64,000 bases of DNA from Escherichia coli. Lineage in GTDB: Bacteria; Pseudomonadota; Gammaproteobacteria; Enterobacterales; Enterobacteriaceae. The position numbers are program-made. The stretch is taken from assembly GCF_003018255.1 (NCBI RefSeq), contig NZ_CP027440.1; one strand, written 5' to 3'. Positions 58,701 through 61,700 of this stretch are shown here, in pieces. Position 1 is the stretch's first letter, and every line of letters begins with the position of its first letter.

Positions 58701-61700
58701 CGTCTCCCATGCCATAACCAATTTTCTCTTTAACGGACAACACTTCACTCTTCATCTGCTTTTCCTTGATGCTATAGGGGTGCTGAGACCGATAACGCAT
58801 TTTGTAAACCATCCCTGCGAGAGCGAATATTCCGATATCTGGTTATTAATTTATGATTCTTGTTTTATGTGATCGTGGTAGCGTTAATTTCGCTCATATA
58901 TCATTGTAAAATATGAGTTTTATATGAACTATAATGTTTTCGTGATAATACGCTGCGTGTATTAGGCGGAAAAAACTGATCTGGGGGATGTAGAAACTCA
59001 AGGAAGTAGCTATAATGCGCCCCGCCTCCATGTAGCAATCGAGGCGCGGAAGATCGTCGTCTCCGGTGAGGCGGCTGGACTTCAAATCCAGTTGGGGCCG
59101 CCAGCGGTCCCGGGCAGGTTCGACTCCTGTGATCTTCCGCCAAAATGCCTCTTCTGAACTCTCCCGACGTCAACAACACTCCTTCGGAGGCGACATGTCA
59201 GACAAAGACTTAACCCAGCCCCCAGCAGGCGAGTTTATTATGTTTGCCAGCGGTGACGGAAGAGTGCGTGTTGAATGTCGCTTTGAGTCAGACACAATCT
59301 GGTTATCCCAGGCGGCAATGGCTGAACTGTACGATAAAGATGTTCGCACTATTAACGAACATTTAATCAATATATTTTCCGAAGGTGAACTTGTTCAAAA
59401 CTCAACCATCCGGAAATTCCGGATAGTTCGCCAGGAAGGAAAACGTCAGGTTTCCAGAGAGATAGACCATTACAACCTCGAAGCCATTCTCGCTGTCGGC
59501 TATCGCGTTCGCTCGCCTCGAGGCACGCAATTCCGCCAGTGGGCCACCCAGACGCTTCAGGAATACCTGATCAAAGGTTTTGTGATGGACGATGAGCGGC
59601 TGAAGAATCCGCCTGTCGGTTCATCGGTTGTGCCCGACTATTTTGATGAGATGCTTGAACGCATCCGCGATATTCGCGCCAGCGAGCGTCGGGTATATTT
59701 GCGGGTGCGGGAGATCTTTGCTTTAGCTGCCGACTATCAGCCATCACTAAAAGAAACCACGCAATTTTTTCAAACCATCCAGAATAAACTGCATTTTGCC
59801 TGTACCGGGCATACCGCTGCGGAACTCATCCACAAACGAGCAGATGCCAGCCAGCCGCACATGGGCTTGACCAGTTATAAAGGTGAAGAGGTACGTAAGG
59901 GCGACGTGACGGTGGCAAAAAATTATCTCACCCAGGATGAGGTCAGCGAACTTAATCGCGTGGTTAATATGTGGCTGGACTTTGCCGAGGATCAGGCCCG
60001 TCGTCGTCAGCAAGTCTTTTTGCGCGACTGGCAGGATAAGCTGGATCAGTTCCTGCAATTTAACGACCGAGAGGTTCTACAGGGCGCTGGTAAAATCAGC
60101 AAGAAAATGGCCGATGAAAAAGCGCAGGCGGAGTATGTTCAGTTTGCCGAACAACAACGGCGCTTAAAAGAAGCCGAAGGCGAGAAGGATATCGCTGGTT
60201 TGCTACAGTGGAATAAAGAGTCGAAAAAGTAGCCCGGAATCCCCCCAAACGCCATACGCAAAACCATTTGGGGGTACTTATGGGGTTACTCATTTATCAA
60301 ATTCAAAATATAAACATTAAATCAATAACTTAACCATCAAATGCGACTCCTGTGATCGCCAAAATGCCTCTTCAGTGATCCCCATCCTGCTTATTTCTGA
60401 GCAACCTGACCCTGCTGATGTATCTGGTAGTATGACAGAGTGATTCGTTTTTCTTGCCGAGTGTACGAAAACGTCTTCCTTGCCACCGACTATCAACCGT
60501 CACTCAAAAAAACCTCTCTTTTTTTCAAGCTATCAAGAATAAGTTGCATTTTATCTGCACCGGACACCAGCCATCCATATATGGCTTTTACCTGCTACAA
60601 AGATGAAGAAGTGCATAAATGTGATGTTAAAACAATCAAAGAAAAATTACATGCGCAATAATTTCACTATAACATTATAATCCATGGTGAAAATAACACT
60701 GCACAAGGATTGTCATCATCAAACTCATCGGAACTATTTTTTCTGTCGTCATTGGTGTAATACTGATTGTAAGTATCCTTTCAGGAGATTATTTTTGCCG
60801 TGTGGGGCATGGAACTTGTAAAGCAGCCAAAAGCGCTAGGCATTTAATTGAAAGTAAAGAGAAAAACAGAAGTAGTCGCGTCAAAGTCTTTAGCACGCAT
60901 ATTAATTTGAGTCATCCAGCGGCATCCTGGCTAGCAACTCAAACTTGCGCTAACAATATATTCAATCTACTTCAAAACAATAATGCCATTTATTTATTCG
61001 AAAACGATAATAAAATTGAACTGCGAATGGGGTATGATTCTTTTTTTTCTATTGAAACGATTGATAAAATTAACAAAGAAAACATCAAAGAAATAAAACT
61101 AAAAAATGAGACAACATATGTTTCTCTTCCTAATCCAACCATTTTAATAACCACGACATCAACACCTGAACGACAGTTTTCTATTTCTGTTCTGGATGAT
61201 GATAACAAAGAAAATCTACCTACCGATACCGCACCTTGTTTTACAATTGGTATTCCTGATGAATATACTAAAGCCATAGAGTTATTGAACATTAAATAAT
61301 TAAATTTCATATTGAGTTTTTTTAAATACCATATGAATAATTGTTATATGTCATTATTTCCTCCATTCACTAAAACTGATTGATTACTCTACTCCCTCAC
61401 CGTCATCGGTAGTGGTATCCTTAACGTATATTGATGAAAAGACAAAACAGTATGCAGAGGGAAAAATGGGTTCCACCAGAAAGGGGATGCTGAACGTTCT
61501 GATTGCCGCCGTGTTGTGGGGAAGTTCAGGGGTCTGCGCGCAATACATCATGGAGCAAAGCCAGATGTCGTCGCAGTTTTTGACTATGACGCGTTTGATA
61601 TTCGCCGGTTTGATTCTGCTGACGCTGTCATTTGTTCATGGCGATAAAATCTTTTCTATTATTAACAATCACAAAGATGCCATTAGTCTGCTGATTTTTT

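What the first reader, a model, noticed from the sequence alone, without database searches (positions are those of the whole stretch)
60662..61400. AT-rich orphan ORF at the position where K-12 carries setC
The segment is much more AT-rich than its flanks and encodes a 165-aa protein with no family I recognise (Asn/Ile/Lys-rich). Composition points to recent horizontal acquisition, perhaps as part of the selC-associated insertions.
Basis: seen in the sequence. Interest (0 to 1): 0.4.

Follow-up and report, generated by a model that had tools for sequence, protein, structure and literature searches.

The report
AT-rich orphan gene beside yicL
This is a real but uncharacterised accessory gene that about a fifth of E. 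coli strains carry where K-12 has setC; it encodes a small membrane-anchored protein with no known relatives, and databases annotate it too short because it seems to start at a rare AUC codon.

Summary
Window 60400-61440 has 30-38% GC against about 49% for the whole window. It contains the 165-aa GTG ORF at 60802-61299, which RefSeq calls 'hypothetical protein'. It fills the selC-yicL gap that setC fills in K-12.

The ORF is a real gene. Against two diverged homologues, 591 nt align without gaps or stops and dN/dS is 0.18-0.20. The constraint continues 84 nt upstream of the annotated GTG, through a 20-residue hydrophobic segment. There the frame has no ATG, GTG or TTG. A conserved AAGGAT plus 7 nt precedes ATC (window), ATT (two homologues), GTG and ATG (remote homologues). 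I therefore place the CDS at 60718-61299: 193 aa, an AUC start, a membrane anchor or signal, and four conserved Cys.

1103 of 5426 complete E. coli genomes carry it and 4282 carry setC. 'Recent' acquisition is not supported: a non-coli Escherichia contig has the same selC-rhuM-ORF-yicL order at flank-like dS. Fifteen percent of carriers have a frameshift. Function is unknown and interest is modest.

The parts
60718..61299 (+). Proposed true CDS: 193 codons plus stop, with an ATC (AUC) start.
   Evidence: 591 nt align without gaps or stops among window, L004 and L006, with dN/dS 0.18-0.20. Codon-phase bias begins here and is absent upstream. The ATC aligns with ATT, ATT, GTG and ATG in the homologues.
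60802..61299 (+). It is an N-terminally truncated call.
   Evidence: The GTG is GTA in L004 and CCG in L006. The nearest AGGAG is 14 nt upstream.
60705..60710 (+). Shine-Dalgarno-like AAGGAT, 7 nt before the ATC start.
   Evidence: Conserved at the same spacing in L004, L006 and L009, with a degenerate TGGAC in L008.
60724..60783 (+). Hydrophobic segment LIGTIFSVVIGVILIVSILS, a signal anchor or signal peptide.
   Evidence: Highest Kyte-Doolittle 19-residue mean is 2.89. AlphaFold predicts a helix at pLDDT 74-76. Second codon positions are conserved.
60694..60696 (+). In-frame TAA that closes the reading frame upstream (an in-frame TGA also lies at 60688).
   Evidence: No ATG, GTG or TTG lies in frame between this stop and 60802.
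61300..61436 (+). Intergenic stretch that belongs to the ORF-type allele. Homology to K-12 resumes at 61437.
   Evidence: It is homologous to L004 but not to K-12 or CUPF09. No terminator-like site lies before yicL.
60440..60661 (+). Degenerate remnant of an older rhuM copy, directly upstream of the ORF.
   Evidence: Pfam PF13310 at E 8.9e-4. Direct repeats at 80-81% identity to the intact rhuM. L004 also has rhuM remnants upstream of its ORF.
60344..60373 (+). Second copy of the selC 3' end, an att-like direct repeat.
   Evidence: It matches 59121-59154 except for a 4-nt deletion. With the first copy it brackets the intact rhuM islet.
59195..60232 (+). Intact RhuM-family gene (context).
   Evidence: PF13310 at E 6e-118. 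PGAP calls it 'virulence RhuM family protein'.
59048..59142 (+). selC, the tRNA-Sec gene (context).
   Evidence: ARAGORN and Rfam RF01852 at 83.8 bits.
61466..62389 (+). yicL, an EamA-family transporter and the conserved downstream neighbour.
   Evidence: Pfam EamA at 2.6e-42. PGAP coordinates.
60990..61310 (-). Antisense 106-aa ORF, judged spurious.
   Evidence: Listed. No comparable minus-strand ORF exists in L004 or L006.

Best explanation
The segment carries a genuine accessory protein-coding gene whose database model is 28 codons too short. Translation most likely begins at the ATC at 60718, seven bases after a conserved AAGGAT. The product is a 193-aa protein with three parts: a two-residue N-tail (Met-Lys), a 20-residue hydrophobic helix that inserts into the inner membrane as a signal anchor or poorly cleavable signal peptide, and a C-terminal alpha/beta domain of about 170 residues.

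The domain has four conserved cysteines, including a C-x6-C loop directly after the helix. I infer that it faces the periplasm and is stabilised by disulfide bonds. The near-cognate start codon, which reporter work puts at about 1-2% of AUG strength, should keep output low. The 33% GC content is typical of H-NS-silenced DNA and would add to that effect.

The gene is the yicL-proximal remnant of an old selC-associated rhuM islet. In E. coli it segregates as the alternative to setC.

Shown: reality of the gene, extent of the coding constraint, absence of a canonical start, positional homology of the start codons, population distribution, and synteny.

Inferred: actual use of AUC, membrane topology, disulfides, H-NS silencing, and any biochemical role. 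My best guess for the role is an envelope binding or inhibitor-type beta-barrel protein. That guess rests only on weak fold resemblance and has low confidence.
For: Coding constraint:
- dN/dS against L004 is 0.20 (dS 0.82) and against L006 is 0.18 (dS 1.56).
- The 33 codons at 60706-60804, upstream of and reaching the annotated GTG, give 0.14 against L004.
- There are no indels or stops across 591 nt, while the other two frames hold 12-27 stops and no composition-matched shuffle stays open.
- Differences by codon phase in the unannotated 28 codons are 12/2/16. The 60 nt upstream give 8/4/5.

Start codon:
- The contexts are AAGGAT+7 nt+ATC (window and eight other E. coli loci), ATT (L004/L005), ATT (L006/L007), GTG (Entomohabitans, L009/L010) and ATG (L008), each followed by AAA or AAG.
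- The remote homologues P0036 (205 aa) and P0037 (199 aa) start at the aligned position.
- AUC and AUU initiate at 1-2% of AUG in E. coli reporters (bioRxiv 10.1101/063800).

Protein features:
- Four Cys are invariant across all seven sequences.
- The N-terminal helix is predicted confidently.
- The mature-domain model has pLDDT 72.7 and pTM 0.71, and the five models agree.

Population and synteny:
- The ORF is in 1103 genomes and setC in 4282, out of 5426.
- L004 has the same selC-rhuM'-ORF-yicL order, and yicL dS is 0.98.
Against: - No experimental evidence of expression was found. A literature search on accessions and locus tags returned nothing.
- A gene without a canonical start could be a decaying gene. 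164 of 1102 carriers, including the type strain, have a +A frameshift that removes the last 45 residues or so and the fourth Cys.
- Among six intact E. coli alleles, 13 polymorphic codons are nonsynonymous and 5 synonymous. Window against KE54 gives dN/dS 0.42. Constraint inside E. coli therefore looks relaxed.
- More basic residues follow the helix than precede it, which by the positive-inside rule favours the opposite topology. No clear AXA cleavage site is present.
- L004 has an open in-frame extension back to a GTG 37 codons upstream of the ATT. A longer ancestral N-terminus cannot be fully excluded.
Confidence: 0.55

Rival explanations
1. The gene was functional in the past but is a decaying pseudogene in E. 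coli. It lost a canonical start codon and is no longer translated to useful levels. It persists only because the selC-yicL interval is rarely deleted.
For: - No ATG, GTG or TTG lies in frame before 60802, and stops lie at 60688 and 60694.
- 15% of carriers share a frameshift.
- SCU-485 has several indels and no annotated ORF.
- Polymorphic codons among intact E. coli alleles are 13 nonsynonymous to 5 synonymous.
- Related Escherichia genomes have deleted the segment altogether.
Against: - The AUY start is shared by three lineages separated by dS 0.8 to over 1.5, and all three kept an open, indel-free frame at dN/dS of about 0.2. The gene therefore stayed under selection after the canonical start was lost.
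- About 85% of carriers lack the common +A frameshift, in a 33% GC sequence where random mutation readily creates stops.
- Within-species dN/dS is normally inflated, and here it rests on only 18 polymorphic codons.
Confidence: 0.27
2. The RefSeq/PGAP model is correct. A soluble 165-aa cytoplasmic protein is made from GTG 60802, and the conserved upstream stretch is a regulatory leader or something else.
For: GTG is a canonical start, and an AGGAG lies at 60783-60787. PGAP calls this model in all genomes inspected that carry an intact allele.
Against: - The GTG is not conserved: it is GTA in L004 and CCG in L006.
- The AGGAG is 14 nt from the GTG, which is too far for efficient initiation, and it also encodes the conserved S-G-D.
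- The 28 upstream codons show coding-type phase bias and low dN/dS.
- Remote homologues carry the same hydrophobic N-terminus behind ATG or GTG starts.
Confidence: 0.1
3. The ORF is a chance open frame in AT-rich non-coding island DNA.
For: It has no family, no literature and atypical composition. Promoter-like sites in the region are no more frequent than in shuffled sequence.
Against: - None of 20000 composition-matched shuffles stays open for 193 codons.
- The frame is open in three diverged lineages while the other two frames carry 12-27 stops.
- dN/dS is about 0.2.
- Remote homologues of the same length are found at E of about 1e-11.
Confidence: 0.02
4. The gene was acquired recently by horizontal transfer into this strain's lineage as part of a selC island.
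For: GC is 33.5% against 49% for the window. The gene lies next to a tRNA integration hot spot with att-like repeats. One homologue sits in an ICE-like cargo slot.
Against: - The locus and gene order are the same in a non-coli Escherichia contig, at flank-like dS.
- The gene lies outside the repeat-bracketed rhuM islet, on the side next to yicL.
- It is present in many lineages with up to about 2.5% allelic divergence.
- No copy occurs on any plasmid or phage record.
Confidence: 0.06

Closest known systems
setC (yicK), the occupant of the same interval in K-12
   Same: It fills the same chromosomal slot between a rhuM remnant downstream of selC and yicL. Its distribution is complementary: 4282 genomes with setC against 1103 with the ORF, out of 5426.
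   Different: There is no sequence or architectural relation. SetC is a 394-aa multi-pass sugar efflux transporter. This protein has 193 aa, one hydrophobic segment, and no transporter-family match in Pfam or NCBIfam.
E. coli genes with AUU start codons (infC, pcnB)
   Same: The start is a near-cognate AUY codon behind a normal Shine-Dalgarno sequence, and it is conserved across diverged homologues. Such codons initiate at about 1-2% of AUG (10.1101/063800).
   Different: The starts of infC and pcnB are experimentally established, and the infC start is autoregulatory through IF3 (from my own knowledge). Here the start is inferred from comparative sequence only, and the E. coli codon is AUC rather than AUU.
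Small 8-stranded beta-barrel envelope proteins (PliC/PhiA lysozyme inhibitors, Tp0751, AimA, lipocalins, avidins)
selC-associated islands carrying rhuM (for example Salmonella SPI-3)
   Same: It is adjacent to selC and to rhuM copies, and tRNA 3'-end direct repeats are present. That SPI-3 carries rhuM next to selC is from my own knowledge.
   Different: This interval has no integrase and no virulence genes. The ORF lies outside the repeat-bracketed islet and has no detectable relation to any Pfam family, including FidL-like. I did not compare it directly with SPI-3 proteins.
Xenogeneic AT-rich genes silenced by H-NS
   Same: GC is 33.5% in a 49% GC background. The homologues are likewise AT-rich relative to their hosts: 41% against 56% in Entomohabitans.
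   Different: H-NS binding was not tested. AT-richness that persists over dS of 0.8 or more is unusual for a gene expected to drift towards the host's base composition.

Membership tests
Any curated protein family (Pfam-A, NCBIfam, PADLOC, PHROGs, PDB sequences) | Profile match at or above the curated cut-off. | tested here: not met
   Best Pfam hit is Patatin at E 0.036-0.054 and 14 bits against a cut-off of 27.7. Best NCBIfam hit is FliL at E 0.03-0.085 and 13-14 bits against a cut-off of 179. PADLOC gave none, PHROGs E at least 0.02, and the PDB profile search gave 0 hits.
SetC / MFS sugar efflux transporters | Multi-pass MFS transporter domain. | tested here: not met
   The protein has one hydrophobic segment only and no MFS match.
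RhuM family (PF13310) | Match to the PF13310 profile. | tested here: not met
   The neighbouring genes match (E 6e-118 and 8.9e-4) but the ORF does not.
PliC/MliC/PhiA periplasmic lysozyme inhibitors | Eight-stranded beta-barrel fold. | tested here: inconclusive
PliC/MliC/PhiA periplasmic lysozyme inhibitors | Sequence family signature (MliC/PliC Pfam profile). | tested here: not met
   No such family appears among hits up to E = 1 for five family members.
Lipocalin / calycin superfamily | Significant structural match to a lipocalin barrel. | tested here: inconclusive
Genes initiated at a near-cognate AUY codon (infC/pcnB type) | No canonical start codon available for the conserved N-terminal coding region. 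| tested here: met
   Stops lie at 60688 and 60694. The first ATG, GTG or TTG in frame is at 60802, which is codon 29.
Genes initiated at a near-cognate AUY codon (infC/pcnB type) | The AUY codon is positionally homologous to ATG or GTG starts of relatives and follows a Shine-Dalgarno sequence at working distance. | tested here: met
   AAGGAT+7 nt precedes ATC, ATT, ATT and GTG; L008 has ATG at the aligned position behind a degenerate TGGAC. The site is identical in nine E. coli loci.
Genes initiated at a near-cognate AUY codon (infC/pcnB type) | Experimentally mapped N-terminus or initiating ribosome. | not testable with these tools
   No expression data are available. The literature search was empty.
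tRNA-associated genomic island cargo | Lies between direct repeats of the tRNA 3' end, with an integrase. | tested here: not met
   The repeat pair 59121-59154 / 60344-60373 brackets only the rhuM islet. The ORF lies beyond it, no third repeat was found, and there is no integrase between selC and yicL.
tRNA-associated genomic island cargo | Atypical composition and variable presence next to a tRNA gene. | tested here: met
   GC is 33.5% against 49%. The gene is 1.6 kb from selC and present in 20% of genomes.
Sec-dependent exported or signal-anchored proteins | N-terminal basic residue followed by a hydrophobic core. | tested here: met
   The N-terminus is M-K followed by 20 hydrophobic residues with a Kyte-Doolittle mean of 2.89. 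The feature is conserved in all homologues.
Sec-dependent exported or signal-anchored proteins | Signal peptidase site and topology (periplasmic C-terminal domain). | tested here: inconclusive
   The only candidate cleavage site is L/I-S-G followed by D. The charge balance favours N-out, whereas four invariant Cys favour a periplasmic domain. PhoA/LacZ fusions are needed.
H-NS-silenced xenogeneic genes | H-NS occupancy and derepression in an hns mutant. | not testable with these tools
   Only the AT-richness could be shown.

The most novel reading that the evidence does not exclude
The gene may be one of very few natural E. coli genes that are translated from a conserved AUC/AUU start codon. 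It would found a previously unrecognised family of bitopic envelope proteins with a new disulfide-bonded fold. The weak start codon, together with persistent AT-richness, would be a selected device that keeps a potentially costly envelope protein at trace levels, or makes it responsive to IF3 or H-NS. The gene is carried by B2-type strains, including ST131, ST95, LF82 and Nissle 1917, in place of setC.
Probability: 0.3. Interest if true: 0.5.

Novelty: new member of a known kind. Interest (0 to 1): 0.3.

Why it matters
About a fifth of complete E. coli genomes carry this gene, among them major extra-intestinal pathogens (ST131, ST95), the Crohn's-associated strain LF82, the probiotic Nissle 1917 and the species type strain. 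Every annotation inspected either truncates it (removing the membrane-targeting segment or the C-terminal part) or omits it.

Correcting the start changes the predicted localisation from cytoplasm to envelope. It also adds a comparative-genomics case of a conserved near-cognate start codon, which gene finders cannot call.

The work further shows that the selC-yicL interval is an old two-allele polymorphism (setC against rhuM'-ORF) rather than a recent insertion. This is relevant to anyone who treats setC as 'backbone'. None of this reveals a function, and the gene is dispensable in most strains, so the practical importance is modest.

Full report
**1. The observation**

In 300-nt windows, GC falls to 0.30-0.38 from about 60400 to 61500, against about 0.49-0.53 on both sides. 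The ORF is 33.5% GC with GC3 of 26%, which places it in the lowest 3.5% of same-length windows of the 64-kb window.

A 165-aa ORF with a GTG start lies at 60802-61299 on the + strand. NCBI's PGAP pipeline annotates exactly this ORF as 'hypothetical protein', for example WP_053291080.1 and WP_000509815.1.

The surrounding genes, in order, are:
- yicI and yicJ (minus strand)
- selC tRNA-Sec at 59048-59142
- an intact RhuM-family gene at 59195-60232 (PF13310, E 6e-118)
- a degenerate second rhuM fragment at 60440-60661 (E 8.9e-4)
- the ORF
- yicL, nlpA, yicS and nepI

Homology to K-12 ends at 59157 and resumes at 61437. K-12 has the pseudogene yicT and setC in between. The statement 'where K-12 carries setC' is therefore correct.

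**2. It is a real gene, and it is longer than annotated**

A search of 5.8 billion proteins returned only E. coli-type sequences plus two diverged homologues: P0005 at 75% identity and P0015 at 63%. I recovered their contigs as L004/L005 and L006/L007.

In the DNA alignment, 591 nt align without a single gap or stop.

| Comparison | dN/dS | dS |
|---|---|---|
| Window vs L004 | 0.20 | 0.82 |
| Window vs L006 | 0.18 | 1.56 |

These are Nei-Gojobori estimates. The other two frames of the same stretch contain 12-27 stops. None of 20000 composition-matched shuffles stays open for 193 codons.

The constraint does not begin at the annotated GTG. The 33 codons at 60706-60804, which lie upstream of and reach that GTG, give dN/dS of 0.14 against L004. 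In the 28 codons between 60718 and 60801, differences by codon phase are 12/2/16. The 60 nt further upstream give an unphased 8/4/5.

These codons encode KLIGTIFSVVIGVILIVSILSGDYFC. This is a 20-residue hydrophobic helix with a Kyte-Doolittle mean of 2.89, predicted by AlphaFold at pLDDT 74-76.

**3. The start codon**

In the window the frame is closed by TGA at 60688 and TAA at 60694. It holds no ATG, GTG or TTG until 60802. That GTG is GTA in L004 and CCG in L006, so it is not a conserved start.

A profile search of 1.84 billion cluster representatives gave only 16 hits. Two are remote homologues of the same size. P0036 has 205 aa. P0037 has 199 aa and comes from Entomohabitans teleogrylli. 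Their first residues align with the beginning of the hydrophobic segment.

At the DNA level the start contexts line up as follows:

| Source | Upstream motif | Spacer | Codon at the start position | Next codon |
|---|---|---|---|---|
| Window | AAGGAT | 7 nt | ATC | AAA |
| L004 | AAGGAT | 7 nt | ATT | AAA |
| L006 | AAGGAT | 7 nt | ATT | AAA |
| L009 (Entomohabitans) | AAGGAT | 7 nt | GTG | AAA |
| L008 | degenerate TGGAC | 7 nt | ATG | AAG |

Nine E. coli loci are identical across this site.

The most economical reading is that the CDS is 60718-61299 (193 aa) and is initiated at AUC. In E. coli reporters AUC and AUU initiate at about 1-2% of AUG (bioRxiv 10.1101/063800, read).

All three AUY lineages kept an intact, constrained frame across saturating synonymous divergence. 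The gene therefore remained under selection after the canonical start was lost. Actual use of AUC is an inference, and I found no expression data.

**4. The protein**

After the helix comes a C-x6-C loop, then a basic amphipathic helix, then a domain rich in beta strands. Four Cys are invariant across all seven family members.

With seven sequences, AlphaFold gives pLDDT 72.7 and pTM 0.71 for the 170-residue mature part, and the five models agree.

Structure searches gave only weak results:
- Foldseek against PDB gives nothing significant, with E at least 0.6.
- Foldseek against viral models (BFVD) gives a best E of 0.03.
- Pfam, NCBIfam, PADLOC, PHROGs and a PDB profile search are all negative.

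I favour a bitopic inner-membrane or exported protein with a disulfide-bonded periplasmic domain. Topology is unsettled, because more basic residues follow the helix than precede it. A binding or inhibitor role like that of other small envelope barrels is only a low-confidence lead.

**5. Distribution and history**

The ORF is present in 1103 of 5426 complete E. coli genomes, always at 95% identity or more and over at least 80% of the 631-nt query. setC is present in 4282. Together they account for 99.2% of genomes, which indicates two alternative alleles of one interval.

Carriers include the type strain ATCC 11775, Nissle 1917, an O25b:H4-ST131 strain, ST95, O6:K2:H1 and LF82. No plasmid or phage record carries it.

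Contig L004 begins with the selC 3' end and the first bases of rhuM. It then has a fliB gene on the minus strand, further rhuM remnants, the ORF, a homologous intergenic region and yicL. Its FliB is 94% identical to proteins of 'unclassified Escherichia'. The yicL dS against the window is 0.98, compared with 0.11-0.14 within E. coli and 0.82 for the ORF.

The order selC-rhuM-ORF-yicL is therefore old. K-12's yicT is itself a rhuM remnant, and setC appears to have replaced the distal part of rhuM together with the ORF.

In the window, a younger intact rhuM islet lies between the two copies of the selC 3' end, at 59121-59154 and 60344-60373. The ORF lies outside that pair, on the yicL side.

The family has nevertheless moved between genomes:
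- L006 carries its copy in a variable cargo slot. The flanking backbone (an integrase-domain gene and an HTH regulator) is 92-96% identical to a Klebsiella pneumoniae element that also holds antirestriction and TraG genes.
- Entomohabitans has its copy between ygiQ-like and dkgA-like genes.
- All copies are AT-rich relative to their hosts.

**6. Signs of decay in E. coli**

- 164 of 1102 carriers, including the type strain, share a +A insertion near 61152. It truncates the protein before the fourth Cys.
- SCU-485 has several homopolymer indels.
- Six intact alleles differ at 13 nonsynonymous and 5 synonymous codons.
- Related Escherichia genomes have lost the segment.

Constraint within E. coli is therefore weak, and the pseudogene rival keeps appreciable weight.

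**7. Verdict**

The 'orphan, AT-rich, horizontally derived, selC-associated' reading is supported, but 'recent' is not.

The added value of this follow-up is threefold:
- a corrected gene model with a membrane-targeting N-terminus and a conserved near-cognate start
- the definition of a tiny Enterobacteriaceae-only family
- the setC/ORF allelic picture

Function remains unknown. This is an uncharacterised accessory gene of modest interest, not a new kind of system.

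Noticed in passing
window 59121-59154 and 60344-60373: The last 22 bases of selC plus 12 downstream bases are repeated 1.2 kb away, with a 4-nt deletion in the second copy. 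The two copies bracket a single intact rhuM gene, forming a minimal att-flanked islet.
   Followed up: partly
window 59554-59707 compared with K-12 locus L003 3395-3524: The K-12 pseudogene yicT aligns with the middle of rhuM at 84-97% identity. yicT is therefore a RhuM-gene remnant, and K-12 once had the rhuM arrangement too.
   Followed up: partly
window ~61152; L012 (ATCC 11775) and L013: A +A insertion truncates the ORF in 164 of 1102 carrier genomes, including the E. coli type strain. RefSeq annotates a 122-aa product there.
   Followed up: yes
L004 187-1404; L011 6002-7216; L016-L019: Non-coli or atypical Escherichia genomes carry a flagellin lysine-N-methylase gene (fliB) inserted into the rhuM remnant next to yicL, far from any flagellar genes. 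Some of them have lost the ORF.
   Followed up: partly
L006 2754-4767: The most diverged close homologue lies with a 228-aa multi-pass membrane protein and an XRE-type regulator. The three form a replaceable cargo module of an ICE-like element with a Klebsiella pneumoniae-type backbone.
   Followed up: partly
window 60746-60751 (T6) and 61040-61047 (T8): Database variants P0024, P0026 and P0033 have one T fewer in the first run, which fuses the ATG at 60684 to the ORF. They also have a frameshift in the second run. These may be homopolymer sequencing errors or decayed alleles.
   Followed up: no
window 1-5063: Five consecutive minus-strand genes at 33-37% GC are LPS outer-core genes: the RfaY heptose kinase, three genes related to 3-alpha-galactosyltransferases, and one family-2 glycosyltransferase. 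This is the other strongly AT-rich block of the window.
   Followed up: partly
window 61385-61436: The 50 or so bases just upstream of the K-12 homology breakpoint before yicL exist in two forms. One is shared by the window and L004. The other is shared by K-12 and CUPF09. The yicL promoter region may therefore differ between the two allele classes.
   Followed up: no
window 53000-55000: A stretch of about 40% GC lies just upstream of yicI. I did not examine it.
   Followed up: no
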